From a virus: a stretch of DNA of 52,077 bases. Positions 10,157 to 24,287 of this stretch are shown one piece after another (the stretch's first letter is position 1; each line of letters opens with the position of its first letter). The stretch is from positions 1 to 52,077 of the IMG/VR virus record IMGVR_UViG_3300010348_001338; one strand, given 5' to 3'. The notes beneath the pieces were generated by a model that was not told the origin of the DNA, ran no database searches, and saw only the letters and a program-made list of their open reading frames with translations. A program made the position numbers and the translations under genes.

Positions 10157-10639
10157 GTGGCAACCCGTTTTGTTTTCACGCCAGAATCAGCTCACTTCCC
10201 ATCATCCAACCCAGCTGCCCTCACTTTGATCAATCGACGTCCAGTCCTAGCTTTCGATGCAGCGACCGATGAATCAGCTTATTGGACTGGGATTGCTCCT
10301 CAAGGGCTGACCGGCACAATTACCGCAATTGTGCATTACATCATGGCGTCTGCAACTAGCGGTGTGGTCTACTTCCAAGCGGCCTTGGAGGCCATCACAC
10401 CTGGGGATGCTGTTGATCTGGATGCCGGTGATTCTTTTGACACGGCCAACAGTGGGAATGGCACAGTACCTGCTACAGCCGGGTATGAACAGAGTATCAG
10501 TATCACAATGACTAACGCGGATTCGATTGCTGCAGGTGATTACTTCCGCTTGCGACTGAACAGAGATGCTGATAATGCTAGCGATACAGCGTCTGGGGAC
10601 GTTTATGTTCTCGGCGTTGAACTGCGTGATGGTGCATAA
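10157..10639 (+). CDS. Putative virion-associated beta-rich protein
   Basis: GTG start with ACAGGAGG 5 nt upstream. 160 aa. Confidence 0.45.
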   Translation: MATRFVFTPESAHFPSSNPAALTLINRRPVLAFDAATDESAYWTGIAPQGLTGTITAIVHYIMASATSGVVYFQAALEAITPGDAVDLDAGDSFDTANSGNGTVPATAGYEQSISITMTNADSIAAGDYFRLRLNRDADNASDTASGDVYVLGVELRDGA

Positions 10640-12105
10640 TGGCTGTTCGTAACGGCACGGCAGAGTGGACGGATTACCTGGCTCGTTCCAGCAACGTGCC
10701 CAGCTATGACGCCAATTACACGCTGCTGTGCTGGTTCCGGCTGGTCACTGCACCGGGCAGCTATTCCTGGGCTGATCTCATTTCACTCCGGTCGGAGCCA
10801 GCCGGAGTATTTTTCTTCGATGAGCTCGGAATCATGAATGTTGCAGGGACTTATAACCTGTACATCCAGGCCAGAAACGATGCAACTCGCGTAGATGCTT
10901 TAGGCTCGACTGCACTATCCACAAATACCTGGTATTGCGCTGCGTTGGTGCGATCCGCGGATACGAGCCGCATTGCATATCTAGGCAGCCTAGCAGCTCC
11001 ATTTTCACAAGATGCTAATCTGACATCGGGAGTGGGCAGTAGGACGAGCAACCCGGCTGCTCACCTGGGAGTTGCGGAAGCGAGTTCCGGGGTGGTATGC
11101 ATCGGTAACACGAAGATCTGGACTGCAGCGTTGACACTTGCAGAGTTGCAAGCCGAGCAGTTCAAGATGCTGCCTGTTCGTTGGGATAGCCTAGCTGCCT
11201 GGTTCCCATTTTTGGACATCGGAGCCAATCGTGGTCGGGATTATTCAGGTGGTGGTGACCTGACGACTCACGGCACAATGACAGATGAGGACAACCCACC
11301 GGTTTTGTATGGCGTCGGCCCAATTCTGTTACCCATTGCTGCTGTAGCAAGTGGAGTCACAGTAACACCTACTCCCACCACTGAGACCGCCGGAGGAGTC
11401 GACCCGATAGTTGTTCTAGGTGCTGTAGCTTTTGCACCCTCATCTGCAGGGGCAGTTGGCAGTGGGATCGATCCTGCAATCTCCCTAGGTGCAATCACAG
11501 TCACTCCCAACCCTGCAGATTCAACAGAATCAGGGGTTGATCCTACAGTTGTCCAGGGAAGCATAGTCGTTGTCCCCCAAGCTGTAGATTCGATATCTTC
11601 GGGGGTTGACCCGACTGTCATTCTATCGGGGGTAATCTTCACACCTGATGTAGCCTTGAGCACATCATCAGGAGTCAACCCAGGAGTCATTCTCGGGCCA
11701 ATCTCGATTACACCTAATCCCACAGAAGAAGCAAGCAGTGGAGTAGACCCTACAGTTGTCGTTGGCTTCGCGGTTACTGTTACACCCAGCCCTACTGTTG
11801 CTCAATCCAGTAGTGTTGATCCAACGATCACCTTAGGCCCGATCACTCTGACTCCAGCAGTCGCTTTTGTTGTAGGGTCCGGTGTAGATTCTACGATCAT
11901 TCTGGGGCCAATCACAACAACCCCTTCACCTGCAGCCGTGATTGGGGGCACAGTCAGTCCAGCAGTTATCATCTCCGCTATCTACATCTACGTTGATCTC
12001 GAGGGTGAAATCACATCGATTGTAGATTTAGCTGGAGATGTGCAGACAGAGATTGATCTTGAAGGAGAGATTTCGACAGTGATCCTTCTGGAAGGAGGAG
12101 TATGA
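10639..12105 (+). CDS. LamG/concanavalin-like N-terminal domain protein with nine ~20-aa tandem repeats and C-terminal decapeptide repeats (candidate fibre or decoration protein)
   Basis: 488 aa. Repeat units resemble ITVTPNPADSTESGVDPTVVQGS. The tail reads VDLEGEITSI/VDLAGDVQTE/IDLEGEISTV. The ATG overlaps the upstream TAA (TAATG). Confidence 0.6.
   Translation: MAVRNGTAEWTDYLARSSNVPSYDANYTLLCWFRLVTAPGSYSWADLISLRSEPAGVFFFDELGIMNVAGTYNLYIQARNDATRVDALGSTALSTNTWYCAALVRSADTSRIAYLGSLAAPFSQDANLTSGVGSRTSNPAAHLGVAEASSGVVCIGNTKIWTAALTLAELQAEQFKMLPVRWDSLAAWFPFLDIGANRGRDYSGGGDLTTHGTMTDEDNPPVLYGVGPILLPIAAVASGVTVTPTPTTETAGGVDPIVVLGAVAFAPSSAGAVGSGIDPAISLGAITVTPNPADSTESGVDPTVVQGSIVVVPQAVDSISSGVDPTVILSGVIFTPDVALSTSSGVNPGVILGPISITPNPTEEASSGVDPTVVVGFAVTVTPSPTVAQSSSVDPTITLGPITLTPAVAFVVGSGVDSTIILGPITTTPSPAAVIGGTVSPAVIISAIYIYVDLEGEITSIVDLAGDVQTEIDLEGEISTVILLEGGV
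11356..11974 (+). repeat. In-frame tandem coding repeats (about 60-63 nt period, 9 units)
   Basis: The motif SGVDPTV(I/V)LG(P)I(T)xTP recurs in the translated product of 10639..12105. Coordinates were converted from aa ~240-445. Confidence 0.8.
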
Positions 12106-12404
12106 GCGCCAAGGTCATTCAATTAGGTGATGTCGGGACCACCCTTCGATTCACAGTGAAAGAGAACGGTGTAGCCAAAGACATCAGTGGAGCAACGGTA
12201 AAGCAACTGATCTTCCGTCGGGGTCTTACGTCTATTACCCGAACAGCTGACTTCACGACGACAGGCTCCGATGGTAGTCTCTCTTACACACTCACGGGTG
12301 AGGATCTCGTGTTAGTGGGGGCCTGGGAAGTGAGAGCCCACATCGAGTCAATCGCGGGAAAGTGGACGAGCAGACCGGATCAGATTGAAGTTGAATCAAC
12401 TTAG
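12102..12404 (+). CDS. Ig-like / BppU-N-like small beta protein
   Basis: 100 aa, start coupled to the upstream stop (ATGA). Alternating beta-strand pattern VGTTLRFTVKENG...DISGATV. Confidence 0.45.
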   Translation: MSAKVIQLGDVGTTLRFTVKENGVAKDISGATVKQLIFRRGLTSITRTADFTTTGSDGSLSYTLTGEDLVLVGAWEVRAHIESIAGKWTSRPDQIEVEST

Positions 12405-12470: not shown

Positions 12471-13682
12471 ATGCCCGTTGATGATGCATTCTGGCAACAG
12501 GAGTCAGAGGAGCTGATGAAGGTGATGCAGCCTTGGATTGAAGAGGCTGCTCTTCGCAGTATCCCTGATGGTCTTGATGCTCTAGGGAATGCAATCGTGG
12601 GTGTTTCAGTTGATTGGAATCTGATCAACCAGCAAGCTCGTGCCTGGGCTGTCGTTCACACAGCAGAATCGGTAGCCCAGATCACTAGGACATCGATGGA
12701 AGCTTTCACTGCAGCTTTTCCCGAGTGGGTAGCTTCTGGACAGCATCTCGATGCCCTCTCCGATGCTCTAGCAAAGAGCTACGAGCCTTGGCGAGCTCGT
12801 CTGATTGCCGTTACTGAAACTACCCGGGCTTACGCTGAAGGCAACTACATCATGTGGCGAGCTTCGGGGGTAGTCGATGGTACCCGATGGTTCACGGCCG
12901 AAGATGAGCTTGTTTGTCCAATCTGTGGGGGACTCGCAGGAGAAACTGTTGCTCTCGATCAGACTTACTCTACAGGCACTCGACGTCCCCCTGCTCATGC
13001 AGGTTGTCGTTGTACTGAGCATCCTGTAGTTGGTGGGATTGAACCAGAGAGAGTTGACCTCTCGAGATCAGCTTTTACAGATGGACGAGACCTTTCAAGC
13101 TATCAGTTGATGGCAGATACTGCAAGTCGGCTTGCTCAAGCTTGGAAGCCGAGCGAAATCGGACTTTCCGATCTTATGAAAGAGCAAGGCTTTACCGGCA
13201 GTCCAGAAGCGTTCATCGAGAGTATGTTACGACACTGGGCTGGGAGTAGTGGGTCCGTTCCCTCTCGTATTATGATCGAGGCTGCAGCTGAGAAAGCTGG
13301 AGTTGCTATCCCACAAGATTTCATCAGTGCTGGTGTTCGAAGATGGTTTGAGGCACACCCAGAGGCCTTGCAAGATCTTCGAGCTCTGGGCAACCTGATG
13401 TTTGACTCCACTCAGAAGTGGTTCCGGGAACGTAATCTAGAGATGGTTCATCTAGTTCGTTCAGAAGTGATCGGGACCTCAAGGAATCGAGCCTTCACTT
13501 CTTGGACGACATCACGTGGGTTCTTCATTTCGTCAGATATAAATCGGGAATATGTCGATGCTTTTATTCCTGTCAATCGAATCTTCTCGATCCCATCTAC
13601 TGGGTTTGGCAACCTCGATGAACTTGAAGCAGTCGTTCTGGGAGACTATTCCGAGTTTATTATAGTGGGAGGGACAGTTTGA
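12471..13682 (+). CDS. Minor head / head-morphogenesis protein (SPP1 gp7 / Mu F-like)
   Basis: AVTETTRAYAEGN...WFTAEDELVCPICGGLAG...PPAHAGCRCT is characteristic of the MuF/gp7 domain. Confidence 0.8.
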   Translation: MPVDDAFWQQESEELMKVMQPWIEEAALRSIPDGLDALGNAIVGVSVDWNLINQQARAWAVVHTAESVAQITRTSMEAFTAAFPEWVASGQHLDALSDALAKSYEPWRARLIAVTETTRAYAEGNYIMWRASGVVDGTRWFTAEDELVCPICGGLAGETVALDQTYSTGTRRPPAHAGCRCTEHPVVGGIEPERVDLSRSAFTDGRDLSSYQLMADTASRLAQAWKPSEIGLSDLMKEQGFTGSPEAFIESMLRHWAGSSGSVPSRIMIEAAAEKAGVAIPQDFISAGVRRWFEAHPEALQDLRALGNLMFDSTQKWFRERNLEMVHLVRSEVIGTSRNRAFTSWTTSRGFFISSDINREYVDAFIPVNRIFSIPSTGFGNLDELEAVVLGDYSEFIIVGGTV

Positions 13683-14101: not shown

Positions 14102-15199
14102 ATGGAGTACAAATCTGTTGCATCGGTCGTGAAGAGTATCGAAGATCGCACTGTTACCGGGTTGACAGCCGTGATGGGCAACATCGATGACGGTGGTGAT
14201 CGAATCTTCCCAGGTGCTTTCCGCAAAACCCTTCAGGAGCATCTTTCCCGGGTGAAGCATCTCTGGCAACATGATGCTACACAACCTCCGACAGCAGTTA
14301 TCAAAGACATACGGGAAGTTGGCGTTGCGGATGTGCCTATGGAAGTGTTGAACATGTACCCGAATGCTACGGGTGCTTTGCAGGTGACTCGGGAATATCT
14401 CCCAACGCCTCGGGGCGAAGAGATCCTTCGCGGGATCATCAGTGGAGCCATCTCTGAGATGTCATTCGGGTACGATCCTATCAAGTTCGATTTCGAGGAG
14501 GTTCCAGGCAAAGGAGTCATCCGCAATCTTCGAGAGTGTCGTTTGTGGGATACTTCCGATGTCAACTGGGGCATGAACCCAGCTACAGTAGCTTCAAAAG
14601 CTGCTATTCCCTTCAAGGATACAGGCAAAGCTGATGAGAGTGAACCCTGGTCAGCTCCTGGACTCGAAGCTTTCTCAGATGAGTCATTTGGAGACCTCCC
14701 GGAGTCTCAGAGGCGCCGCATTGCAGGACACTTTGCGTGGAGTGCAAGCACACCTCCCGAGACGTTCGGTGATCTCAAGCTCCCCCATCATGAAGCTTCT
14801 AAGTCAGGGATTGGGCCTGCAGTCTGGAGGGGGGTCAGCGCAGCAATGGGAGCATTGATGGGAGCTCGTGGGGGTGTAGACATCCCTGACTCTGATCGTC
14901 AGGCTGTCTACACTCATCTATCACGCCATTACGAGCAGTTTGGGAAAGAAGCTCCTGATTTCAAGTTCGTCGAGCTTGCTTATCGGGCAGTGACGTTTCA
15001 AGTTGATGAGTTCAAGTCTGGACGCGTTCTCAGTGCATCGAATGTTGATCGACTGAAACGTGCTCTAGCGGAACTGCAAGATATTCTTGCCGCAGCCGAG
15101 CCGTTGGAAGACCCTCAAAAGGTGGCCGCACTCACTGCACAGTTGCTTCGGAAGATCAAGCTCGCGGAGCATGATCCGATTCTACTTTCTGTGAGGTAA
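14102..15199 (+). CDS. Prohead protease (HK97 family) with C-terminal extension
   Basis: The N-terminus VTGLTAVMGNIDDGGDRIFPGAF is typical of HK97-type proteases. The gene lies directly upstream of the major capsid gene. Confidence 0.75.
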   Translation: MEYKSVASVVKSIEDRTVTGLTAVMGNIDDGGDRIFPGAFRKTLQEHLSRVKHLWQHDATQPPTAVIKDIREVGVADVPMEVLNMYPNATGALQVTREYLPTPRGEEILRGIISGAISEMSFGYDPIKFDFEEVPGKGVIRNLRECRLWDTSDVNWGMNPATVASKAAIPFKDTGKADESEPWSAPGLEAFSDESFGDLPESQRRRIAGHFAWSASTPPETFGDLKLPHHEASKSGIGPAVWRGVSAAMGALMGARGGVDIPDSDRQAVYTHLSRHYEQFGKEAPDFKFVELAYRAVTFQVDEFKSGRVLSASNVDRLKRALAELQDILAAAEPLEDPQKVAALTAQLLRKIKLAEHDPILLSVR

Positions 15200-15201
15200 C
15201 C

Positions 15202-16578
15202 ATGGACAAGTCTCAATTAGATGATCAGCGTAACCAATACAAGACGCTGATCGAACAGGCCCGGGCAAAGGCCAAAGAGTTCGAGGGCAAAGACATGCCA
15301 CCGGAAGTCGCGACCCAGATTGATGGTCTTCTGGGTAAGGCTGACGAAGTCAAAGCCCGTATCCAGGTGGGTGAACGTATCCTGGCTGGTGATCAGTTCC
15401 TGGATCAGTCGAAAGGTTTACAGGCTGCTCAGGTGGGTTGGCGTGATGCTGGCCCCTCTGAGGGTTTAGCCCACGTTGATCCCAAGTCCTGGCGGGAACT
15501 GGAAGTCAAATCAATCACGATCGACCCCATCTACAAGATCCCGATCTCCTCCGTCAAGACTATCCGATATCTGATTCCGGAAGCTGTTCAGGCGAAGGGC
15601 TACCAGCCTGCTTTCGAGGCCTATTGTCGTAAGGGTCTTGCCAATCTTGGCCCGAATGATTCAAAGACCCTTTCCGCTGGCGCTGATGATGCTGGTGGCT
15701 TCCTGGTCCCGGAGGACTATCACATCGAGCTTATCAAGAAGATCGCCGCATCTGCTACCATCCGTCCCAATGCCCGTGTGGTCTCAACTGGTCGTGAAAT
15801 CGCCAAGTGGCCGAAAGTACACTACACGGCCGACGACAAGTACACCTCGGGTGTTCGCTTCACCTGGACAGGTGAGGCTCCGGCGACGTCAACCAGTCAT
15901 CGCGTGACTGACCCGGTGTTTGGTCTGTATGCGATCCCGGTCCACACGGCGATGGCTTCAATGCCACTTTCGAATGATCTCCTGGAAGACAGTGCATTCG
16001 ATGTGGTCGGTGTTTCCTCGGACATGCTCGCAGAAGCCTTTGCTCTGGGTGAAAACGATGTTTTCATCAATGGCAACGGTATCGGTCGTCCGATGGGGAT
16101 CCTGGCTCAGATTGGCACTGATGGTCCTGCTTACGTAGCCTCTGGTACAGCAGGTGCGCTGACCGCCGATGGTCTGATTGACCTGGCTTACGCTCTCCCG
16201 GCCCAGTACGAACGTAACGCCAAGTGGTACATGAGCAAGGCCACTGAGAAAGCGGTCCGCAAGATGAAATCTGGCGACAACGAGTATTTGTGGCCGGTGA
16301 CTTCGAATGTCGGCAACTTCGGCGTGAATCCTCGGGATCTGCTCGGCTTCCCGACCGTTCGTGAAGAGTTTGTCCCTGCCATCGCCGCCAACTCCTATCC
16401 GATCATCTTCGGTGATCTGACTGGGTACTTGATCCTGGATCGTGTGGGCTTCTCGATCCAGCGTCTCTCGGAGCTGTACGCCGAGACCAACATCACCCTG
16501 CTGCTTGCTCGTAAGCGCGTAGGTGGTCAGACGATTGAGCCTTGGCGTATGAAGGTTCAGAAAGTCGCGACCTCTTAG
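15202..16578 (+). CDS. Major capsid protein (HK97 fold) with N-terminal delta-like coiled-coil
   Basis: 458 aa with the AGGFLVPEDY motif. Position after the protease supports the call. Confidence 0.85.
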   Translation: MDKSQLDDQRNQYKTLIEQARAKAKEFEGKDMPPEVATQIDGLLGKADEVKARIQVGERILAGDQFLDQSKGLQAAQVGWRDAGPSEGLAHVDPKSWRELEVKSITIDPIYKIPISSVKTIRYLIPEAVQAKGYQPAFEAYCRKGLANLGPNDSKTLSAGADDAGGFLVPEDYHIELIKKIAASATIRPNARVVSTGREIAKWPKVHYTADDKYTSGVRFTWTGEAPATSTSHRVTDPVFGLYAIPVHTAMASMPLSNDLLEDSAFDVVGVSSDMLAEAFALGENDVFINGNGIGRPMGILAQIGTDGPAYVASGTAGALTADGLIDLAYALPAQYERNAKWYMSKATEKAVRKMKSGDNEYLWPVTSNVGNFGVNPRDLLGFPTVREEFVPAIAANSYPIIFGDLTGYLILDRVGFSIQRLSELYAETNITLLLARKRVGGQTIEPWRMKVQKVATS

Positions 16579-16611
16579 TCGTTCGGAATCTCTCCTTGGG
16601 AGGTAAGACGT

Positions 16612-16977
16612 ATGATTCAGGATCTTGAAACCAAATTCTTGATCACCCCTCGCAAGGTGACCGCTGGTGGCGTCACAGGTGCCACTTGGGTTGACCTGCA
16701 AGGTCTAGATACCGAGCATGGTATCAAAGCCCTCTTTTCCGCCGGTGCTGGCATAACCGCTGGCACTTGTGGGGGCTACATCCAGGCCAGCGACAGTTCC
16801 ACTGGAGCTGACCCAACCACAGTTCTCACGTTTGGCACCCTGCCTGCTACGGGTGGAAGTCAAGAGACTCACTTCGTGATGCAGAAACGGTACGTCAGAT
16901 TTGTGGGAACTTGCCAAACTGGCAGTGACATGATCGTAGCTGTGCAGCTGCTTGCACGTGCTCGGTATCGCCCGTAA
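16612..16977 (+). CDS. Hypothetical head-associated protein
   Basis: 121 aa with a GGGAGGTAAG RBS. Gly/Thr/Ser-rich. Confidence 0.45.
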   Translation: MIQDLETKFLITPRKVTAGGVTGATWVDLQGLDTEHGIKALFSAGAGITAGTCGGYIQASDSSTGADPTTVLTFGTLPATGGSQETHFVMQKRYVRFVGTCQTGSDMIVAVQLLARARYRP

Positions 16978-17006
16978 GACCTTTGAACGTTCTTGAGTGA
17001 ACCTCT

Positions 17007-17036
17007 GAGCTGGGTGGTCACCCGATCACCCAGCTC
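17007..17036 (+). terminator. Strong hairpin after the capsid genes, no U-tract (partial terminator or stabiliser)
   Basis: GAGCTGGGTG (17007-17016) pairs with CACCCAGCTC (17027-17036). Confidence 0.4.
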
Positions 17037-17056
17037 AACACCACCGGAGGGACGCG

Positions 17057-17791
17057 ATGAATCAAGCTGAAGTTGAAAGCGTTTTGAAGACGTGGCCTGT
17101 ACGGGCCTGGAAGTGGCCCAGAATTGTGGCCAGTGTTTTACAGGAACGAGCAATGGCTCATGCGGATGATGTGTTTCCGAATTTCTGGGGCATTGCTGCC
17201 AACGGAGTTGCACTCTTACATCAGGACTATGGACGTACCGATGTCGTCCGGAATCAGTTGGTCAGAAGTTTTCTTCAGAGTAACTTTACTCATCTGTTGA
17301 TGCTCGATGTTGATCATATCCACCCGACGAACATTGTGCAGAGATTAGCTCGTTGGGTGATGCTGTATCCCGAAGTGAAAGTTGTAGGAGGGTTGAACTT
17401 TCGTCGGGGAGAGCCCTATGAGCCGTGCTGTTTCATCAAAGGGGACGATGGCAAGTTTTACGCTCCGGCTGAGTGGGAGCCAGGCTTGATCGAGGTCGAT
17501 GCCATTGGCACAGGGTCGATCCTCATTGCTCGGGAAGTTTTCGAGCAAATGGAGCCACCTTGGTTCTGGGTTGACTACTCTGGAGTTTGGGAAGATGTTT
17601 GGCCAGGGGAAGATATGGGTTTCTCGGCCAACTGTCGCAGGCTGGGAATCAAGATGTTCGTAGATACGACGACAACAAGCCCCCACATGATTGATGCTGT
17701 TGTAGATGAATCATCTTTTCGTAACTATCAGAAGGATCATCACTCAGTCGTCGCTGATTTCGAGACTATCAAGTCAGGGAGAAAGTCGTGA
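17057..17791 (+). CDS. Glycosyltransferase (GT-A fold, GT2-like)
   Basis: LLMLDVDHI (DxD-type motif) and GTGSILIAREVFEQMEPPWF. GGAGGG RBS. Confidence 0.6.
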   Translation: MNQAEVESVLKTWPVRAWKWPRIVASVLQERAMAHADDVFPNFWGIAANGVALLHQDYGRTDVVRNQLVRSFLQSNFTHLLMLDVDHIHPTNIVQRLARWVMLYPEVKVVGGLNFRRGEPYEPCCFIKGDDGKFYAPAEWEPGLIEVDAIGTGSILIAREVFEQMEPPWFWVDYSGVWEDVWPGEDMGFSANCRRLGIKMFVDTTTTSPHMIDAVVDESSFRNYQKDHHSVVADFETIKSGRKS

Positions 17792-18450
17792 TTACCCGTT
17801 GGTCTGACCTAAAGCTTCGACACGAGGGACAGACAGGGCTCGTCATCGGGAATGGGCCTAGCCTTTCGAGTATCCCCCTCAGCTTCCTTGGGAGATACCC
17901 GTCGATTGGCACCAATCGGATCTACCTGCTCGAAGGCTTCACTCCCACATACTACGTAGCCATCAACCCTCTCGTGATCGAGCAATCAGTTGAAGAAATC
18001 TCGGCGATTGAATGTGAAGCCAAGTTTATTCGTGCAGGCTTGCACACTCTGATTCCAGATACACTGCCAGTTCGATCGACCACTTTGCCAATTTTCAGTC
18101 GGGATCCTTCAAAGTGGGTCTATGAAGGCTTTACAGTCACGTACGTTGCCCTTCAGTTGGCCTTCTGGTTGGGATTCAGGACTGTCCTTCTTGTTGGAGT
18201 TGATCACAACTACAAATTCGAAGGGCAACCTAACGAAGAACACATCTTGAGTGGGCCAGATCCTAATCACTTTTCACCCAAGTACTTCCAAGGATCTCGA
18301 TGGCACAACCCTGACCTCGTCCAGTCCGAGATTTCGTATCAAATGGCCCAGACAGTCTTCACAACTGAAGGTCGTAGAATCATCAACATCACCCCTGGTT
18401 CAAAGCTTGATGTCTTCCCTAAAGAAGATTGGAGGGACTTCGATGACTGA
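17788..18450 (+). CDS. DUF115/MptE-like, GT42 (Cst-II)-like glycosyltransferase, possible nonulosonic-acid transferase
   Basis: VIGNGPSLSSIP...GTNRIYLL...YYVAINP and TYVALQLAFWLGFRTVLLVGVDHNY parallel the IAGNGPSL...CNQFYF and VAIALGYKEIYLSGIDFY blocks of Cst-II and Maf-type enzymes. This comparison is from memory. Confidence 0.5.
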   Translation: MITRWSDLKLRHEGQTGLVIGNGPSLSSIPLSFLGRYPSIGTNRIYLLEGFTPTYYVAINPLVIEQSVEEISAIECEAKFIRAGLHTLIPDTLPVRSTTLPIFSRDPSKWVYEGFTVTYVALQLAFWLGFRTVLLVGVDHNYKFEGQPNEEHILSGPDPNHFSPKYFQGSRWHNPDLVQSEISYQMAQTVFTTEGRRIINITPGSKLDVFPKEDWRDFDD

Positions 18451-19138
18451 TCCCAAAGTCTCCGCCATCGTATCAGCCTACTATGCTGCAGATTTTCTGC
18501 AAGCTCGCATTGAGAACTTGCTACAGCAGTCTCAGATCCCCGAGATTATCGTTGTCTGTCAAACAGGCAGTGCTGAGGCTAGGATAGCCCAGAAGTTCCT
18601 TGAAGATAACGTCTCTGAAGTAGCAGTCCTACTCACTCCTGACATCCCGACGATTTATGATGCGTGGAACAAAGCTATCCCGTATGCTCTGGGAGAGTAT
18701 CTCACGAGTGCTAACTCTGATGATCGTCTCAAACCGAGGGCTCTCGAAGAGATGACTGCAGCTTTAGATCGTCGCCCAAGCTACGCTGTAGTTTATGGAG
18801 ATCAGGAAATCGTTTCTGAGATTGATGGAGGGGTTGTTGGGAAGTTTGCTTGGCTCACAGGGGGCTTCAAGGAGCTGTTGAGAGGTTGCTTCGTAGGCCC
18901 GATGCCAATCTGGCGTAAGTCCCTTCACGAGAAGTATGGACTCTTCGATCCTACGTATCGCATTGCTGGGGATTACGAGTTCTGGCTTCGAATAGCCTCG
19001 AAAGGTGAGAAGTTCCTCCACTTCTCTGCCGTTGTCGGCTCTTATCTTCAGAGGAATGATAGCCTCGAACATCGTGAACCCCTCAGAACTGTTTGGGAGA
19101 CAGCCCGTGCTCGAAGTCTGTATCGAAAGGAGTCGTGA
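18443..19138 (+). CDS. Glycosyltransferase family 2
   Basis: ATG 18443 follows GGAGGG. VSAIVSAYYAADFLQ...IIVV...YDAWNKAI...SANSDDRL is the classic GT2 N-terminal pattern. The longer track ORF from 18251 overlaps the upstream gene. Confidence 0.7.
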   Translation: MTDPKVSAIVSAYYAADFLQARIENLLQQSQIPEIIVVCQTGSAEARIAQKFLEDNVSEVAVLLTPDIPTIYDAWNKAIPYALGEYLTSANSDDRLKPRALEEMTAALDRRPSYAVVYGDQEIVSEIDGGVVGKFAWLTGGFKELLRGCFVGPMPIWRKSLHEKYGLFDPTYRIAGDYEFWLRIASKGEKFLHFSAVVGSYLQRNDSLEHREPLRTVWETARARSLYRKES

Positions 19139-19413
19139 TGAAAGTTCGAATGTTGAAAGAACTTACTCTGGCTTATGGACCACAAAGAGTTACTGTCGGT
19201 CAGGTGATTGATCTCCCTGATGGTGTAGCCGAGTCCTTAGTTGGAGCTCTTCTGGCAGAACAGATTCCAGCTTTGGAAGTTATCAAGATTGCTCCCACCC
19301 CTGAAAAACGATCTTCGAAGAAGAAAGAGGAAACTGCAGCAGTGCCTCCTCTCGTTCCTCCCGAAGATGTAGCTCCAGGAGCTGATCTTGTAGATGAGCA
19401 GAAGGTGGAGTAA
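19138..19413 (+). CDS. Hypothetical protein with Pro/Lys-rich tail
   Basis: ATG 19138 is coupled to the upstream TGA (GTGATG) with an AAAGGAG RBS. Confidence 0.5.
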   Translation: MKVRMLKELTLAYGPQRVTVGQVIDLPDGVAESLVGALLAEQIPALEVIKIAPTPEKRSSKKKEETAAVPPLVPPEDVAPGADLVDEQKVE

Positions 19414-19416
19414 TCG

Positions 19417-20025
19417 ATGTCACCAAGTAGCTACTGTGCGGTCGATGAAATCAAGGCCTTGATGCCAGATGCCCAGTTTGGCACAGCCTACGATGCTGTC
19501 CTACTTGATCTTTCTCTTCGTGCAAGTCGTTTGATTGACCGCATCACGAAGAGGGATCCTGGGTCATATGCAGCCGATTCGACATCAGTACGCTACTTCG
19601 ATGGGTCAGGCTCAGATACTTTGTTGATTGATGAACTTGCAGGAGCTCCAACACTCGTCGAAGTAGACGAAGCTGGTGATGGAGTCTACGTAGCTTGGGC
19701 TGCGACAGATTATCGGGTTTGGCCTTACAATCGCCCTCCCTACACTCGTCTCATCATCCCTATCCTGACCAGCTCAAAAGCCCTCTGGTATCGATATCCA
19801 GCCTCTGTCAAGATTACAGGGCCTTGGGGGTTCTCGGTGACTGTCCCAGAAGAGATCAAGCAAGCAGTCTCCATTCAAACGATTCGTTGGTTCAAGAGGG
19901 GGCAGCAAGGCTTCCAGGATGTAGGAGCTGTCGCTGAGCTGGGACGACTCCAGTACGTAAAAGACATCGACCCTGATATTCAAGGCATCTTGGTCGATGG
20001 TGGTTACATGGAGCTGACAATATGA
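19417..20025 (+). CDS. Head-tail connector (gp6-like adaptor)
   Basis: The N-terminus AVDEIKALMPD...LLDLSLRASRLIDRIT is typical of gp6-like connectors. Position supports the call. Confidence 0.55.
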   Translation: MSPSSYCAVDEIKALMPDAQFGTAYDAVLLDLSLRASRLIDRITKRDPGSYAADSTSVRYFDGSGSDTLLIDELAGAPTLVEVDEAGDGVYVAWAATDYRVWPYNRPPYTRLIIPILTSSKALWYRYPASVKITGPWGFSVTVPEEIKQAVSIQTIRWFKRGQQGFQDVGAVAELGRLQYVKDIDPDIQGILVDGGYMELTI

Positions 20026-20437: not shown

Positions 20438-20632
20438 ATGTTGATCTATATAGGCGCAGGCAAGTTCCTCCCGGGAGTCCCAGCTCGGGATCTAACTGAA
20501 GCTGAGGTGAGTCTGTTTGGCGGGAAGGAAGCTCTGCTGAAATCCGGCCTTTATCGTCTCCCTCGCAAATCTGACATTCTGGGAGGTCAGGAAAACAAAG
20601 TTGTAGGTCCTCAGGAGGTCAAACATGATTGA
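20438..20632 (+). CDS. Small hypothetical structural-module protein
   Basis: 64 aa with a GTGAGGTGAG RBS. Confidence 0.45.
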   Translation: MLIYIGAGKFLPGVPARDLTEAEVSLFGGKEALLKSGLYRLPRKSDILGGQENKVVGPQEVKHD

Positions 20633-21635
20633 CGGTATCAAGAAGCTTCGACGGGTGCAGATCGGAGCCGAAACAACAGCTGGAACAGCTGTAGCAGCCA
20701 CGACGATTATGCGTATCGCTGGAGCTGCACTCCAGGATGATCGTGATGTCCAATTCCCAGAGGAGGATGTTGGCCTGCTGGTGTCTACGGATCGTAACTA
20801 CGTAGCAAGTCTGCAGGGCTCATTCCCTTCGGGGGATAATCCAGCCACCTTCGAACAGATTGGCTACTACTTCGAGGCTGGCATCAAGAAAGTTGGTACT
20901 GGCGTAGCCGACGGTCCGGGCAGTGGGCGCATCTACACCTACACTTTCCCGACCACAACTCCCAACGTTATCCAGACATACACGATTGAAAGTGGAGATA
21001 ACGTCGACGTCGAGAGACTCGAATACGCGTTCGTGCAGAAGATCAACATATCTGGCAAGCCGAAGGAGGTGATCCAAGTCTCTGCTGATTGGGTTGGCCG
21101 TCAGGTAACCCCTATCACAAGCTTTACTGCAGGCCTTTCGATTCCGCCAGTTGAAGAAATTGTGTTCCAGAAGTCGAGGCTCTACATTGACGATGCATCC
21201 GGAACCATCGGGACTACCCTGGTTTCGGGCACGTTGCTGGGCTTCGAAGCTGAGCTAGAAACAGGTCTCGTCCCTGTGTTCAGTGGAGATGGAGAGCTCT
21301 TCTTCAATCGTCTGAAGCAAGTGGGACCTACAGGCTCGCTCAAGATCACCTTCGAGCATAATGGTTCTGCCGTTGCAGAAAAGCTCAATTGGCGCAACAA
21401 AGTCTCTCGGGCTGTCCGATTGAAGATTGAAGGATCTTCGTTCACGACTGCTGGCACCACTTATCCAGCAAAGACGTTGCAGATTGATCTCTGTGGTCGC
21501 TGGGCTACCTTCGATAAGCTTGATGAATCTGATGGTAATGACGTTGTAACAGGCACTCTCCAAATCGGTTACAATGCTACGCAGGCCTTGTGGGGCCGCA
21601 TCACTGTTGTGAATGCACTGCCATCCCTGCCTTAG
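20625..21635 (+). CDS. Putative major tail (tube) protein
   Basis: 336 aa, immediately upstream of the frameshifted chaperone pair and the tape measure. CAGGAGG RBS. Confidence 0.6.
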   Translation: MIDGIKKLRRVQIGAETTAGTAVAATTIMRIAGAALQDDRDVQFPEEDVGLLVSTDRNYVASLQGSFPSGDNPATFEQIGYYFEAGIKKVGTGVADGPGSGRIYTYTFPTTTPNVIQTYTIESGDNVDVERLEYAFVQKINISGKPKEVIQVSADWVGRQVTPITSFTAGLSIPPVEEIVFQKSRLYIDDASGTIGTTLVSGTLLGFEAELETGLVPVFSGDGELFFNRLKQVGPTGSLKITFEHNGSAVAEKLNWRNKVSRAVRLKIEGSSFTTAGTTYPAKTLQIDLCGRWATFDKLDESDGNDVVTGTLQIGYNATQALWGRITVVNALPSLP

Positions 21636-22115: not shown

Positions 22116-24287
22116 ATGGGAACGAAAGAAGACCTCGAAGTTCAAATTACAGCTACAGATAAGGCGTCAGGCACGCTCAAAGGCCTGAACTCTACGCTCG
22201 GTGGTCTCGCGAAGACGACTGGAGTAGCTTTAGGAGCAGCTCTTGGTTCAGCTGTAGTAGGGTTAGGTGCCTTGGGGGCATCCGCTCTATCTACGAACGC
22301 TGAGCTCGAGACAGCTACCCTCCAGTTTGAGACTCTGCTAGGATCTACGGATGCTGCAAAAGAGCACATTGCTACTCTGTATGAGTTTGCAGCCAAAACC
22401 CCCTTTGAGACAGGCCCAATCCTTCAAGCCTCTCGCTTGCTTGAAACCTTCGGTGGGTCTGCCCTTGATTCAAAGGAGAATCTGACTCTCTTCGGCAATG
22501 CTGCAGCTGTTGCTAACGTCGGCATTGAGGAAGTTTCGTTTTGGGCTGGGCGAGCATATTCTGCTATTCAAGCAGGTAGACCATTCGGTGAGGCTGCTGC
22601 TCGCTTGCAAGAAATGGGTCTACTCTCAGCTACAGGTCGTGCAGAGTTAGAGGAGCTCTCAGCCTCAGGAGCCGATTCGACAGAAGTCTGGGGCAAGTTT
22701 ACAGAGCAATTCCAGAGGTTCGATGGTGCTATGGAGAAACAGGCAGCTTCATGGCAGGGCCTCGTATCTACAATCAAGGACAATGTAACACTAGTTATCG
22801 GTACAGCCTTCAAGCCGTTCTTTGACTCTATCAAAGAAGCTGGCACGATGGTAGCTGATTTCGTGCAAACAGACGCTTTTGCTGCTGGAGCAGAGGATAT
22901 CGCTGCATCGTTAGCTCCTTTAGCAACGAAGTTCGGCGATATAGCAACGACACTCATTGGAGAAGTCGGGCCAGCACTCTTTGATGGGGTCATCTTACCA
23001 TTCATTCAGCTCAGTGCTACAGTAGGTCCCCCTATACTTTCTCTGCTAGGAGTTCTGCTAGGTGCATTCTCAGACCTAACCGGGGCACTCATCGGCCCCC
23101 TCATGGAGACCCTCATGTCTCTGATTGGCACAATTCTCCCTCCACTGGGAGAGCTGTTGCCTTCAATTGCTGCGGTACTAGGAGAATTGGGTGGAGCTTT
23201 TCTCTCCATCCTCAGCCCAGTGTTGAGTCTCCTGGGCCCACTCCTTGAAATTGCAGCCTCCATTCTCCCACAACTCCTCCCTGTGATTCAGCAGATTACA
23301 GGGCCCCTTGTAACGTTAGCACAGACAATCCTTCCTCCTCTTGGGCAGCTCATAGGCTTACTCGCTGCAGGGTTCTTGCAACTCGTGATGATCATATTGC
23401 CTCCACTGGCCGGGCTGTTCTCAACGTTGATCACTTCTTTGATGCCGCTGCTCCAGATGGTGCTTCCAGCTTTGGTGCCACTCATCAATCAGCTGATCAC
23501 ACCGATGACTGCCCTCATTACAACATTGCTGCCCCCAATGGCAGTTCTCTTCTCGAGTGTTATCCAATCGATCATGCCACTGATTACAGAGGTTCTGCTG
23601 AACTTGATTGGGCTTATAATCCAGACAATCTCGGCCACTACGCCGCTGATCATCTCGATTCTACCCCCACTCGTCTCCTTGTTTGGCACTCTGATCACGG
23701 CTATCATGCCACTCGTGACTGCTGTTCTGCCATTGCTAGCTCCTTTACTGCAAGTGATCATCGATCTCTTCACGCCACTCATCCAAGTGCTGATCCCGAT
23801 CTTGAATATCCTGATCGGGGCTATGCAGAAAGCTATCGAGGCTTTGACCCCGGTTCTCCAGGCCTTCTCGAGTTGGATCTCGGACAAAGTCATACCGGCA
23901 ATCGATGGAATTACAAACGCCATCAAGCCTGTGATTGACTGGATCGGGAGAATGGCTGATAAGCTCTCGACCATCAAACTCCCTGATTGGCTGACTCCTG
24001 GATCCCCAACACCATTTGAGCTAGGCCTTCGTGGGATCACGAAAGCAATGTCAGACCTAAACAGCGGTGCCCTCCCAGAGTTCAGTTCTCAGCTCGATAT
24101 TCGAGGAGGATCCCCAATTGGTGCCGGAGGAGCAATTGCCGGACTAGCTGGAGGAGCTGGGGGTGTTATCCTTCAACTCAACTATCAGCCTATGCTCTCT
24201 TTCGCGGATGCGAGTGAAGTGAAGGAACGAATCCAACCTGTGGTCGAGGAGATTATCCGTAAATACGTACGAGGATCTCAACGATGA
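22116..24287 (+). CDS. Tape measure protein
   Basis: 723 aa with an Ala/Gly-rich N-terminus and long Leu/Pro/Ile-rich helical repeats. Position after the chaperone pair supports the call. Confidence 0.85.
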   Translation: MGTKEDLEVQITATDKASGTLKGLNSTLGGLAKTTGVALGAALGSAVVGLGALGASALSTNAELETATLQFETLLGSTDAAKEHIATLYEFAAKTPFETGPILQASRLLETFGGSALDSKENLTLFGNAAAVANVGIEEVSFWAGRAYSAIQAGRPFGEAAARLQEMGLLSATGRAELEELSASGADSTEVWGKFTEQFQRFDGAMEKQAASWQGLVSTIKDNVTLVIGTAFKPFFDSIKEAGTMVADFVQTDAFAAGAEDIAASLAPLATKFGDIATTLIGEVGPALFDGVILPFIQLSATVGPPILSLLGVLLGAFSDLTGALIGPLMETLMSLIGTILPPLGELLPSIAAVLGELGGAFLSILSPVLSLLGPLLEIAASILPQLLPVIQQITGPLVTLAQTILPPLGQLIGLLAAGFLQLVMIILPPLAGLFSTLITSLMPLLQMVLPALVPLINQLITPMTALITTLLPPMAVLFSSVIQSIMPLITEVLLNLIGLIIQTISATTPLIISILPPLVSLFGTLITAIMPLVTAVLPLLAPLLQVIIDLFTPLIQVLIPILNILIGAMQKAIEALTPVLQAFSSWISDKVIPAIDGITNAIKPVIDWIGRMADKLSTIKLPDWLTPGSPTPFELGLRGITKAMSDLNSGALPEFSSQLDIRGGSPIGAGGAIAGLAGGAGGVILQLNYQPMLSFADASEVKERIQPVVEEIIRKYVRGSQR

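What the first reader, a model, noticed from the sequence alone, without database searches (positions are those of the whole stretch)
17057..19138. Three glycosyltransferase genes embedded in the head module right after the major capsid gene
Seen: three translationally coupled ORFs follow the capsid genes and the hairpin at 17007-17036. They are a GT-A/GT2-like enzyme with LLMLDVDHI, a DUF115/GT42 (Cst-II/Maf)-like enzyme with VIGNGPSL and LVGVDHNY, and a classic GT2 with SANSDDRL. They lie inside the late structural operon, not in an accessory arm. Established: GNGPSL-type DUF115/GT42 enzymes transfer nonulosonic acids (sialic, pseudaminic, legionaminic acid), including O-glycosylation of flagellin Ser/Thr. 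Virion glycosylation by phage-encoded GTs placed next to structural genes has so far been reported for only a few mycobacteriophages. Inference: this phage probably glycosylates one of its own virion proteins. Natural acceptors are the Ser/Thr/Pro-rich repeat protein at 10639..12105 and the Gly/Thr/Ser-rich protein at 16612..16977. A three-enzyme set implies a multi-sugar glycan, possibly capped with a nonulosonate.
Basis: partly seen in the sequence, partly recalled or inferred. Interest (0 to 1): 0.78.

Follow-up and report, generated by a model that had tools for sequence, protein, structure and literature searches.

The report
Sugar-adding enzyme cassette among phage head genes
An uncultured phage carries three back-to-back sugar-transferring enzymes wedged between its capsid and head-tail connector genes, most likely to coat its own particle with sugars, something so far proven only for a few mycobacteriophages that use unrelated enzymes.

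Summary
Three translationally coupled genes sit at 17057-17791, 17788-18450 and 18443-19138. They lie between the major capsid gene with its small follower protein and the head-tail adaptor.

- ORF1 is a GT-A-fold glycosyltransferase with no Pfam family. Its AF2 model (pLDDT 91) matches STIV A197, Mimivirus R699 and human collagen galactosyltransferase.
- ORF2 is a bare DUF115/MptE-like domain. Its link to GT42 sialyltransferases is weak and sequence-only.
- ORF3 is a classic SpsA-like GT2.

The trio recurs in many uncultured siphovirus contigs, always inside the head-tail operon but at two different insertion points. It is often enlarged with methyltransferases, a nucleotidyltransferase, extra GT2s and a pyruvyl transferase. 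ORF1-ORF2 fusion genes exist. The closest capsid relatives lack the cassette, so it is accessory.

Its layout mirrors mycobacteriophage Corndog (methyltransferase plus three GTs next to the capsid gene). A later genome report, citing Freeman 2023, says the homologous genes of cluster O phages modify capsid and tail tube. No sequence similarity to the Corndog enzymes was detected.

Self-glycosylation of the virion is the best reading (about 0.6) but remains inferred. The two proposed acceptors are not supported as general targets. The nonulosonate cap is speculative.

Verdict: a new variant of a known kind, of moderate-to-good interest.

The parts
15202..16578 (+). Major capsid protein (HK97 fold). 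Upstream anchor of the cassette and a candidate glycan acceptor.
   Evidence: PF05065 at 1.2e-54 and phrog_10 major head protein at 7e-59.
16612..16977 (+). 121-aa Gly/Ser/Thr-rich small protein that follows the MCP in type A relatives. Possibly a capsid decoration or accessory protein; function unknown.
   Evidence: phrog_5707, unknown function, 6e-8. Homologues follow the MCP in L001, L002, L013, L027, and in GT-less L092.
17006..17037 (+). Strong stem-loop between the abundant head genes and the enzyme genes, with no U-tract. Inferred to be an mRNA stability or attenuation element.
   Evidence: 14-bp stem, centroid -26.8 kcal/mol, z = -4.1. Not called as a terminator. Hairpins with different sequences sit at the same position in L001, L002 and L027.
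17057..17791 (+). ORF1: GT-A-fold glycosyltransferase of an unnamed family (A197/R699/ColGalT1-like). Carries a DxDH metal motif, a GED motif and a C-terminal SPH motif.
   Evidence: No Pfam hit. AF2 pLDDT 91. Foldseek PDB: R699 3e-9, STIV A197 3e-9 with TMt 0.71, ColGalT1 and LH3. Profile versus PDB finds A197 only, E = 0.015. Invariant residues. Fused to GT2, GT4 and methyltransferase domains elsewhere.
17788..18450 (+). ORF2: stand-alone DUF115/MptE-like domain (GNGPSL ... GVDH ... NHF). A probable nucleotide-sugar transferase whose donor is unknown.
   Evidence: PF01973 at 36.7 bits against cutoff 34.6. phrog_4603 at 2e-4. Profile versus PDB hits only GT42 sialyltransferases, best 8.8e-4. 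AF2 pLDDT 96. No significant PDB fold match. BFVD matches to DUF115/MptE-like viral proteins, TMq up to 0.79. Fused to ORF1-like domains in L030, L031, L044, L047 and L050.
18443..19138 (+). ORF3: SpsA-like family 2 glycosyltransferase (NSDD motif).
   Evidence: PF00535 at 6e-10. PDB SpsA 1h7l at 3.5e-7 and WrtF-type GT 9omh at 4e-6. NCBIfam TuaG and EpsE far below cutoff.
19138..19413 (+). 91-aa protein whose start overlaps the ORF3 stop by 1 nt. It ties the cassette to the downstream connector genes.
   Evidence: Junction read. phrog_2616, unknown function.
19417..20025 (+). Head-tail adaptor. Downstream anchor of the cassette.
   Evidence: phrog_442 head-tail adaptor at 2.5e-9.
20625..21635 (+). 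Putative major tail (tube) protein. In type B relatives the cassette lies immediately upstream of p64 and this gene. Candidate acceptor by analogy with mycobacteriophages.
   Evidence: The homologue in L001 has a faint PF18906 Phage_tube_2 hit. Synteny.

Best explanation
This is a phage-encoded virion glycosylation cassette.

Proposed mechanism:
- The three soluble enzymes are transcribed late, as part of the head-tail operon.
- A strong stem-loop separates them from the highly expressed capsid genes and probably keeps enzyme levels below structural-protein levels.
- In the cytoplasm they build a short hetero-oligosaccharide directly on one or more virion proteins, using host nucleotide sugars. 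Among the roughly 48 of its 76 ORFs that were scanned, the phage encodes no sugar-activation gene.
- ORF1 is the best candidate for the step that touches protein. It is a GT-A enzyme with a DxDH metal site, and its nearest structural neighbours include protein-O-glycosyltransferases and the STIV A197 enzyme.
- ORF3, an SpsA-like inverting GT2, extends the glycan.
- ORF2, a DUF115 enzyme, adds a further residue, possibly from a CMP- or CDP-activated donor.
- The glycan coat is accessory rather than needed for assembly. By analogy it would shield or alter the particle surface.

Shown: gene identities, coupling, conserved placement and gene fusions.
Inferred: the protein acceptor, the order of steps, the donors and the biological role.
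For: Enzyme identities.

Translational coupling: the cassette is coupled into the downstream connector gene, and the promoter and terminator scan found no more sites around it than chance gives.

Conserved placement in the structural operon:
- Type A order is MCP-p121-GT1-(MT)-DUF115-(MT)-GT2-adaptor.
- Type B order is MCP-adaptor-p135-GT1-...-DUF115-GT2-p64-tube.
- Of 26 IMG/VR loci with enough flank, 19 have structural neighbours and 14 carry all three enzyme types.

Functional coupling: natural ORF1-ORF2 and ORF3-ORF1 fusions exist. ORF1-family domains are also fused to GT2, GT4 and methyltransferase domains.

Related cassettes add typical glycan-tailoring genes: FkbM and TylF-type methyltransferases, a MobA-like nucleotidyltransferase, a pyruvyl transferase, an acyltransferase-GT2 fusion and an RmlD-like reductase.

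Precedent:
- Corndog has a methyltransferase plus three tandem GTs directly upstream of its MCP.
- A later genome report on cluster O phages with the same gene set, citing Freeman 2023, says these enzymes modify capsid and tail tube (PMC11600133).
- ORF1's best small structural match is A197 of STIV. That STIV's major capsid protein is glycosylated is my recollection, not something checked here.

Other points:
- None of the three proteins has a transmembrane segment.
- No integrase turned up among the roughly 48 window ORFs scanned.
Against: - No direct evidence exists that any virion protein carries sugar.
- No acceptor signature could be found. The C-termini of MCP and tube look the same in relatives with and without the cassette.
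- The cassette is absent from the closest capsid relatives (L092, L091, L098-100, L116-117). It therefore behaves like a moron, and morons often act on the host.
- ORF2's family also contains a pterin pyrophosphokinase, so its glycosyltransferase activity is assumed.
- No sequence similarity was detected to the proven mycobacteriophage enzymes, so the argument is by analogy only.
- Soluble GT2 enzymes commonly act on undecaprenyl-linked envelope precursors.
Confidence: 0.6

Rival explanations
1. Host-envelope remodelling. The enzymes modify a host surface polysaccharide or its lipid-linked precursor during infection. This would mask receptors and block superinfection, or stop progeny from re-adsorbing to lysed cells. 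The position in the late operon would then be incidental.
For: - The cassette is accessory and variable, like a moron.
- ORF3's nearest named families are cell-wall and exopolysaccharide GT2s such as TuaG, EpsE and WcaA, though far below their cutoffs.
- Related cassettes carry capsule-type genes: a pyruvyl transferase and an NKWYS capsular synthesis protein.
- This is the interpretation usually offered for phage GTs in metagenomic studies (PMC7029224).
Against: - There are no membrane-spanning or Gtr-type proteins.
- No integrase or repressor was found among the ORFs scanned, so lysogenic conversion is unlikely.
- The genes are translationally coupled to structural genes rather than carrying their own promoter and terminator.
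- In 19 of 26 well-flanked loci the cassette lies inside the head-tail operon, at one of two sites flanked by MCP or tube genes.
Confidence: 0.2
2. DNA hypermodification. The transferases decorate a modified base in the phage genome with sugars to evade restriction, as in T4 or the 5hmC-glycan systems.
For: - Multi-GT DNA glycosylation is documented in phages (bioRxiv 10.1101/2023.12.21.572611, listed).
- This phage clearly invests in DNA modification. It has QueC and a QueF-like or GTP cyclohydrolase I-fold gene.
Against: - The DNA-modification genes present belong to the 7-deazaguanine pathway. They sit about 26 kb away in the replication module, not with the GTs.
- No hydroxymethylase, TET/JBP or cytosine methyltransferase was found among the ORFs scanned.
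- The cassette is consistently linked to capsid or tail genes.
- Accessory partners in relatives are sugar-tailoring enzymes of polysaccharide type.
Confidence: 0.07
3. ORF2 is not a glycosyltransferase. It would be an MptE-like pyrophosphokinase or another nucleotide-dependent enzyme, for example one activating or phosphorylating a sugar or pterin. Only ORF1 and ORF3 would then transfer sugars. This rival concerns ORF2 only and is compatible with any of the readings above.
For: - PF01973 is named after a pterin diphosphokinase.
- Foldseek found no significant solved-structure match and no GT42 or Maf hit.
- The sequence similarity to Cst-I is confined mainly to the N-terminal nucleotide-binding motif.
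- The phage has pterin-derived 7-deazaguanine genes.
Against: - ORF2 is fused in frame to the ORF1-type GT-A domain in five independent contigs.
- It is flanked by GTs and sugar methyltransferases in many loci.
- The only solved proteins its profile finds are sialyltransferases.
- The best-superposing PDB hit (TMq 0.42) is a GT29 sialyltransferase.
Confidence: 0.25

Closest known systems
Mycobacteriophage virion glycosylation genes (Corndog gp35-gp38; also Che8 and Myrna; Freeman et al. 2023, Cell Host Microbe, known here only through citing papers)
   Same: - Tandem phage-encoded glycosyltransferases embedded in the head module next to the major capsid gene.
- Corndog has a methyltransferase plus three GTs directly upstream of its MCP. 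The window's relatives likewise add a methyltransferase.
- In both systems the genes are accessory rather than universal within the phage group.
   Different: - No sequence similarity was detected between ORF1-3 and Corndog gp35-38, even at E <= 10 against that small set.
- The enzyme set here includes a DUF115 enzyme and an A197-like GT-A.
- The host is not an actinobacterium. MAG bins that hold related contigs are mostly Anaerolineales and Dehalococcoidia.
- Glycosylation is not demonstrated here.
STIV A197 (PDB 2c0n), a GT-A glycosyltransferase of an archaeal virus
   Same: It is the only solved protein found by the ORF1 sequence profile (E = 0.015). It is also among the best fold matches (E = 3e-9, TMt 0.71). 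Both are small, soluble, virus-encoded GT-A enzymes with a DxD motif.
   Different: - About 17% identity.
- A different virus realm and host domain.
- A197's own substrate is not established.
Collagen hydroxylysine galactosyltransferase ColGalT1 (GT25), the LH3 GT domain, and Mimivirus R699
   Same: Top Foldseek matches to ORF1 (E = 3e-9 to 2e-7). At least ColGalT1 and LH3 glycosylate protein side chains directly.
   Different: - 10-14% identity, and the matches cover only one domain of much larger proteins.
- The acceptor there is hydroxylysine in collagen repeats, and none is evident in this phage.
- The resemblance is one of fold class, not of membership.
GT42 sialyltransferases (Cst-I, Cst-II) and Maf flagellin nonulosonate transferases (DUF115-containing)
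   Same: - A GNGPSL nucleotide-binding motif and a 'T-x-T ... G-x-D' second motif in the same order.
- Cst-I, Cst-II and Lic3A-type enzymes are the only solved proteins hit by the ORF2 profile.
- Maf proteins share the PF01973 domain and glycosylate a structural protein on Ser/Thr (from my own knowledge).
   Different: - The similarity is marginal: 8.8e-4 over 75 residues.
- No GT42 or Maf structure appears among the Foldseek PDB matches listed.
- ORF2 is a bare 220-aa domain without Maf's flanking helical domains.
- No nonulosonate pathway genes were seen in the window ORFs scanned or in the relatives sampled.
Bacillus subtilis SpsA-type GT2 enzymes
   Same: ORF3 aligns from residue 4 to 122 with SpsA, including the DxD region (3.5e-7), and passes the PF00535 cutoff.
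   Different: Low identity. ORF3 is phage-encoded, and its acceptor is unknown.

Membership tests
GT-A fold glycosyltransferases (ORF1) | Single Rossmann-like alpha/beta/alpha GT-A fold | tested here: met
   AF2 model with pLDDT 91 and pTM 0.89. 172 PDB matches at E <= 1e-3; all 50 listed are glycosyltransferases or GT-A-fold proteins.
GT-A fold glycosyltransferases (ORF1) | DxD-type metal and nucleotide-sugar binding motif | tested here: met
   D84-x-D86-H87 is invariant in 33 homologues, as are G184-E185-D186 and H210.
GT-A fold glycosyltransferases (ORF1) | Assignment to a curated sequence family (Pfam or NCBIfam) | tested here: not met
   No Pfam family at E <= 0.1 apart from a spurious PhzA/B hit. 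No NCBIfam hit. Only weak PHROG 'glycosyltransferase' hits, 1e-4.
DUF115 / PF01973 MptE-like (ORF2) | Score above the Pfam gathering threshold | tested here: met
   36.7 bits against a cutoff of 34.6, covering residues 11-143. Homologues carry a precomputed PF01973 annotation.
DUF115 / PF01973 MptE-like (ORF2) | Fold shared with other DUF115 proteins | tested here: met
   BFVD matches annotated DUF115 or MptE-like, E down to 1e-14, TMq 0.66-0.79.
CAZy GT42 sialyltransferases (ORF2) | Significant full-length sequence similarity to Cst-I or Cst-II | tested here: inconclusive
   The profile hits only GT42 proteins, but weakly (8.8e-4 to 0.1) and mostly over the N-terminal motif. Single-sequence phmmer found nothing.
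CAZy GT42 sialyltransferases (ORF2) | Structural match to solved GT42 enzymes | tested here: not met
   Foldseek against the PDB gave no match at E <= 1e-3, and no GT42 entry is among the top 50. The best superposition is GT29 ST6GALNAC2, TMq 0.42.
CAZy GT42 sialyltransferases (ORF2) | CMP-nonulosonate donor available or encoded | tested here: inconclusive
   No NeuA/NeuB-type gene was found among about 48 window ORFs scanned, nor among the accessory genes of related cassettes. About 28 small ORFs were not scanned, and host metabolism is unknown.
Maf flagellin glycosyltransferases (ORF2) | DUF115 core flanked by helical substrate-binding domains | tested here: not met
   ORF2 is 220 aa, and the AF2 model is a single compact domain. 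The profile did not hit any Maf chain at E <= 10.
GT2 / PF00535 (ORF3) | Score above the Pfam cutoff, and a DxD motif | tested here: met
   39.7 bits against a cutoff of 23.3. The N-S-D-D motif aligns with SpsA's DxD region.
Phage virion-glycosylation systems (mycobacteriophage type) | Phage-encoded GTs in tandem next to capsid genes in the late operon | tested here: met
   Window gene order, compared with Corndog gp35-38 upstream of gp41.
Phage virion-glycosylation systems (mycobacteriophage type) | Homology to the characterised enzymes | tested here: not met
   phmmer, and the A1 and A2 profiles, against Corndog gp35-39 gave no hit at E <= 10. tblastn of ORF2 against 50,697 phage records gave no match. 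ORF1 gave only two uncultured Caudoviricetes records at 31% identity.
Phage virion-glycosylation systems (mycobacteriophage type) | Glycans covalently attached to capsid or tail-tube subunits | not testable with these tools
   Needs mass spectrometry or glycan staining of particles.
Seroconversion Gtr-type systems | Membrane-embedded GtrA/B/C proteins near the integration module | tested here: not met
   The highest 19-residue hydropathy peak is a buried Rossmann helix-strand in ORF2, so there is no transmembrane segment. No integrase was found among the ORFs scanned.
DNA base glycosylation systems (T4 alpha/beta-GT, 5hmC-glycan) | A partner enzyme that makes a hydroxymethylated base, located in the DNA-metabolism module | tested here: not met
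   No hydroxymethylase, TET or cytosine methyltransferase was found among the ORFs scanned. The cassette lies in the structural module in the window and in 19 of 26 well-flanked relatives.

The most novel reading that the evidence does not exclude
A large clade of environmental siphoviruses with no member in the isolated-phage collection searched, probably infecting Chloroflexota, carries a hypervariable 'virion glycan island' inside the head-tail operon.

- The island has a conserved three-enzyme core: an A197-like GT-A, a DUF115 enzyme and a GT2.
- It has swappable tailoring genes: methyl-, pyruvyl- and acyl-transferases, a nucleotidyltransferase and a radical-SAM enzyme.
- It would coat capsid and/or tail with strain-specific decorated glycans, a phage counterpart of bacterial O-antigen loci.
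- It would have evolved independently of the mycobacteriophage system.
- The DUF115 enzyme would act as a Maf-like protein glycosyltransferase.

If true, particle glycosylation is widespread in nature rather than an actinophage curiosity.
Probability: 0.4. Interest if true: 0.78.

Novelty: new variant of a known kind. Interest (0 to 1): 0.6.

Why it matters
As far as the literature I could reach shows, phage particle glycosylation has been demonstrated only for a few mycobacteriophages. As I recall it, the founding paper states there is little evidence for it in the wider phage population.

This cassette has the same genomic logic but enzymes with no detectable sequence similarity to those. 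It recurs in many uncultured phage contigs from digesters, sediments and waters, and ORF2 alone has 3806 homologous protein clusters.

If the enzymes do decorate the particle:
- Glycan coats would be a common and independently evolved phage trait.
- That would bear on adsorption, particle stability, escape from host or predator recognition, and the immunogenicity of therapeutic phages.
- It would give a first functional context for two large unannotated viral enzyme families: the ORF1 family, which has no Pfam model, and the stand-alone DUF115 proteins.

The three genes are small and soluble, so the claim can be tested directly by co-expression with the capsid and tail genes.

Tried and rejected
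1. DNA search of 15000-20000 against 50,697 phage records found no match. No cultured relative is available for comparison.

2. Single-sequence PDB searches gave nothing for ORF2 and only noise for ORF1, plus A197 at E = 0.87. Profiles and structure prediction were needed.

3. Foldseek of the ORF2 model against the PDB returned only weak generic Rossmann matches. I do not use it as support for GT42.

4. I tested whether the 319-393 aa coiled-coil protein that occupies the same slot in about 15 relatives (e.g. L103 9819-10778, L059 2433-3542) is a distant DUF115 homologue. hhalign gave probability 0.5% and there was no Pfam hit. The motif resemblance is unconfirmed and I dropped it.

5. I looked for an acceptor signature by comparing the C-termini of MCP and tube in relatives with and without the cassette. 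Terminal Ser/Thr residues occur in both groups, so there is no signal.

6. The p488 protein as general acceptor is rejected. Its four-gene block is missing from the portal-MuF junction in L001, and no locus gave a phmmer hit to p488.

7. The p121 protein as general acceptor is rejected. It is present in GT-less L092, and no homologue was detected in type B cassette carriers. A homology search for p121 returned only 4 clusters and no name.

8. A tail-tube single-sequence scan of IMG/VR found nothing.

9. Tandem Repeats Finder did not report the degenerate peptide repeats of p488 at the DNA level.

10. Freeman et al. 2023 (PMC10527164) is not in the held library. Its content is cited only through other papers and my own recollection.

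11. The scan for intrinsic terminators and promoters around the cassette found no more than chance.


Full report
**What the window is.** The 52,077-base window begins and ends with the same 127 bases. It is therefore a complete, circularly assembled phage genome of about 51.95 kb. Nearly all genes are on the + strand. The gene order is:
- terminase large subunit, 6408-7904;
- portal, 7913-9328;
- a four-gene insertion, 9694-12404;
- Mu-F-like protein, 12471-13682;
- a protease/scaffold-like gene whose relatives carry Peptidase_S78;
- HK97-type major capsid protein, 15202-16578 (PF05065, 1.2e-54);
- a 121-aa protein, 16612-16977;
- the three ORFs of the finding;
- a 91-aa protein;
- head-tail adaptor, 19417-20025 (phrog_442);
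- putative tube protein, 20625-21635;
- tape measure, 22116-24287;
- tail genes, then a replication module.

**The observation.** The three ORFs are real and tightly coupled.
- ORF1 starts at ATG 17057 behind GGAGGGA.
- ORF2 starts at GTG 17788 inside GTGA, a 4-nt overlap.
- ORF3 starts at ATG 18443, 8 nt before the ORF2 stop. The longer GTG 18251 ORF in the mechanical list is not supported by the homologues' N-termini.
- The next gene starts at ATG 19138 and shares its A with the ORF3 TGA.

It has a 14-bp stem, a centroid energy of -26.8 kcal/mol and z = -4.1 against shuffles. No U-tract follows, and the terminator scan does not call it. Hairpins of different sequence but similar strength sit at the same junction in L001, L002 and L027, though not in L013 or L094. 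I infer that this is an mRNA stability or attenuation element separating abundant head proteins from low-abundance enzymes.

**ORF1.**
- It matches no Pfam or NCBIfam family.
- It has 397 close metagenomic clusters.
- An exhaustive profile search finds 229 50%-identity clusters at E <= 1e-30 and 2767 at E <= 1e-10.
- The alignment shows an invariant D84-x-D86-H87, G184-E185-D186 and S208-P209-H210.
- The profile finds one solved protein, STIV A197, at E = 0.015.
- The AF2 model (pLDDT 91) is a GT-A fold. Its best PDB matches are Mimivirus R699, A197 (TMt 0.71), human collagen galactosyltransferase ColGalT1 and the LH3 GT domain, at E = 3e-9 to 2e-7. Many GT2-type enzymes follow.
- Elsewhere the ORF1 domain is fused to GT2, GT4 and methyltransferase domains.

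ORF1 is therefore a glycosyltransferase of an unnamed family. That several top neighbours glycosylate protein side chains is suggestive, not conclusive.

**ORF2.**
- It passes the PF01973 (DUF115/MptE-like) gathering score narrowly, 36.7 against 34.6 bits.
- It has 3806 homologous clusters, nearly all annotated PF01973.
- Invariant residues include G21-N-G-P-S-L26, N43, T116/T118, G137-x-D139-H140 and N160-H161-F162.
- Its profile hits only GT42 sialyltransferases among solved proteins, and weakly: Cst-I at 8.8e-4, mostly over the first 75 residues, with a second short match over the T-x-T...G-x-D segment.
- The AF2 model is very confident (pLDDT 96).
- Foldseek finds no solved structure at E <= 1e-3. 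The best superposition is the GT29 sialyltransferase ST6GALNAC2 at TMq 0.42.
- Against predicted viral structures it matches DUF115/MptE-like proteins of a giant virus and many uncultured Caudovirales, with TMq up to 0.79.

So DUF115 membership is established, GT42 or Maf membership is not, and the nature of the donor is open.

**ORF3.** It is an ordinary SpsA-like GT2. It matches PF00535 at 6e-10, and SpsA at 3.5e-7 and a WrtF-type fucosyltransferase at 4e-6.

**Comparative context.** The neighbourhoods of homologues are strikingly consistent.
- In L001 and L002/L003 the order is protease-MCP-123-aa protein-ORF1-like-(methyltransferase)-DUF115-(methyltransferase)-GT2-adaptor-tube.
- A scan of IMG/VR with the ORF2 profile confirmed 105 relatives, of which 80 loci were kept.
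- Annotating these with the window's proteins shows two arrangements. Type A is as in the window. Type B has the cassette moved downstream: MCP-adaptor-p135-ORF1-like-...-DUF115-(methyltransferase)-GT2-p64-tube.
- Of 26 loci with at least 4.5 kb on both sides, 19 have recognisable structural neighbours and 14 carry all three enzyme types.
- Type B cassettes are enlarged with an extra GT2 (25 and 12 loci for two families), a MobA/IspD-like nucleotidyltransferase (27 loci), FkbM methyltransferases (11 loci), a polysaccharide pyruvyl transferase, a hexapeptide acyltransferase-GT2 fusion, B12-radical-SAM enzymes and an RmlD-like reductase.
- Five contigs from different samples encode a single polypeptide with an ORF1-like N-terminal half and an ORF2-like C-terminal half. 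GT2-ORF1 fusions also exist.

The three enzymes therefore belong to one glycan-building pathway. In relatives, that glycan is methylated, pyruvylated or acylated.

**The cassette is accessory.** I scanned IMG/VR with an MCP profile and annotated the hits.
- The closest capsid relatives L092 (65% identity), L091, L098-100 and L116-117 go straight from MCP, with or without the p121-like protein, to the adaptor. They have no GT.
- Others carry an ORF1-like gene with different partners, such as a GT2, a radical-SAM enzyme or a polytopic membrane protein.

So the cassette is gained, lost and remodelled on a conserved structural backbone. It is not needed for assembly.

**Comparison with the known system.** Papers citing Freeman et al. 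2023 state two things. Glycans are attached to the C-termini of capsid and tail-tube subunits of several mycobacteriophages (PMC12619734). In cluster O phages, an O-methyltransferase followed by three tandem glycosyltransferases performs this (PMC11600133).

In the Corndog record these are gp35 (methyltransferase) and gp36-38 (three GTs). They lie in the head module directly upstream of gp39, gp40 and the major head protein gp41. The layout is therefore the same as here.

The proteins show no detectable similarity. phmmer and profile searches of ORF1-3 against Corndog gp35-39 give nothing at E <= 10. tblastn of ORF2 against all 50,697 phage records finds nothing. ORF1 finds only two uncultured Caudoviricetes records at 31% identity. 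GTs next to capsid or tail genes have also been noted, without experiments, in archaeal tailed viruses (PMC11706807).

**Host.** Related contigs have been binned into MAGs named as follows:
- Anaerolineales, three times;
- Dehalococcoidia, once;
- Lentisphaerae, once, on a short contig;
- Pseudomonadota, once, on a short contig;
- Chlorobiaceae, once, a weak 25%-identity match on a 154-kb contig.

This hints weakly at Chloroflexota hosts. Binning of phage contigs is not reliable evidence.

**Which target?** Arguments for virion proteins:
- strict residence in the head-tail operon at two alternative sites, flanked by capsid or tube genes;
- translational coupling into structural genes;
- soluble enzymes without membrane segments;
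- no integrase among the ORFs scanned;
- the Corndog precedent;
- ORF1's structural kinship with A197 and with protein-O-glycosyltransferases.

Arguments against certainty:
- there is no direct evidence;
- the cassette shows moron-like presence and absence;
- ORF3's nearest named families are cell-wall and exopolysaccharide enzymes, though far below their cutoffs;
- relatives carry capsule-type tailoring genes.

DNA glycosylation is unlikely. The phage's DNA-modification genes are QueC at 45035-45736 and a QueF-like or GTP-cyclohydrolase-fold gene at 44610-45038, plus a Vut_1/YhhQ-like transporter at 3025-3660. They belong to the 7-deazaguanine pathway and lie far from the cassette. No hydroxymethylating enzyme was seen.

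**The proposed acceptors.** The protein at 10639-12105 has a weak ConA-like/LamG N-terminal domain and degenerate Ser/Thr/Pro-rich repeats. It belongs to a four-gene block. In L001, portal is followed directly by Mu-F, so the block is missing from that position, and no locus gave a phmmer hit to it.

The 121-aa protein family follows the MCP in type A genomes whether or not GTs are present, as in L092, and no homologue was detected in type B loci. Neither protein can be the general acceptor of this enzyme family, though either could be used in this phage.

MCP and the tube protein are found in cassette-bearing loci of both arrangements, and they are the acceptors in mycobacteriophages. However, their C-termini do not differ between relatives with and without the cassette. 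The acceptor remains unknown.

**The nonulosonate idea.** It rests only on the DUF115/GT42 resemblance.
- No NeuA/NeuB-type gene was found among the window ORFs scanned or in the sampled cassettes.
- The frequent nucleotidyltransferase partner is MobA/IspD-like. That fits a phage-supplied activated donor, possibly cytidylylated, but does not identify it.

I rate 'ORF2 transfers a CMP-activated acidic sugar' as possible but unsupported.

**Verdict.** The best explanation is a virion glycosylation cassette that is analogous to the mycobacteriophage system but shows no detectable sequence similarity to it, with confidence about 0.6. It is the minimal three-gene form of a widespread and highly variable glycan island in uncultured siphoviruses. 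That makes it a new variant of a known kind. It matters mainly because it suggests particle glycosylation is far more common than current experimental evidence shows, and because it can be tested directly.

Noticed in passing
window 1-127 and 51951-52077: The first and last 127 bases are identical. The window is therefore a complete, circularly closed assembly of a phage genome of about 51.95 kb, and the overlap length suggests a k = 127 assembler.
   Followed up: partly
window 44610-45038, 45035-45736 and 3025-3660: There is a QueF-like or GTP-cyclohydrolase-I-fold gene (3e-25), QueC (4e-57) and a Vut_1/YhhQ-like transporter (1.6e-13). This looks like a 7-deazaguanine (preQ0/preQ1) DNA-modification pathway. 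No DpdA/TGT-like transglycosylase was identified among the ORFs scanned.
   Followed up: partly
window 9694-12404: A four-gene block (149, 160, 488 and 100 aa) is inserted between portal and the Mu-F-like gene. In relative L001 portal is followed directly by Mu-F. The 488-aa protein has a weak ConA-like/LamG domain, then about nine degenerate ~24-aa 'SGVDPTVxLGxIxVTPxP' repeats and a 'DLEGEI' repeat tail. Homologues of the 160-aa protein lie in the tail-fibre region of L040, L041 and L102. These may be head or neck fibre genes.
   Followed up: partly
window 46620-49403: The family A DNA polymerase carries an N-terminal uracil-DNA-glycosylase-superfamily domain (8e-29) fused ahead of the 3'-5' exonuclease and polymerase domains.
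   Followed up: no
L030 3-1343, L031 9233-10702, L044 9317-10684, L047 9269-10693, L050 824-2242: Single ORFs of 446-489 aa fuse an ORF1-like GT-A domain to an ORF2-like DUF115 domain. They come from five contigs of different samples.
   Followed up: yes
L059 2433-3542, L069 8829-9995, L007 8817-9998, L102 9833-10948, L103 9819-10778: A 319-393 aa protein with a Rossmann-like N-terminal half and a long coiled-coil tail occupies the cassette slot in about 15 relatives. In L102 and L103 it is the only cassette-slot gene found between the p121-like gene and the adaptor. Its motif order recalls DUF115, but hhalign gave 0.5% probability and no Pfam family matched.
   Followed up: partly
L112 7845-10056: The MCP gene of this 150-kb contig appears split into two ORFs (7845-8444 and 9037-10056) with about 600 bp between them. 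This may be an intron, an intein or an assembly problem. The same locus has two ORF1-like genes, a predicted polytopic membrane protein and a papain-like 225-aa ORF.
   Followed up: no
L001 7953-7985, L002 7950-7978, L027 1892-1921: Strong hairpins of unrelated sequence (12-14 bp stems, z about -3.6 to -4.4) sit at the same p121-to-ORF1 junction as the window hairpin. The L002 hairpin is followed by a U-rich stretch.
   Followed up: partly
window 30495-30917 (- strand): An RNase H gene (1e-19) lies on the minus strand at the boundary between the tail/lysis region and the early region. It is one of very few minus-strand genes.
   Followed up: no
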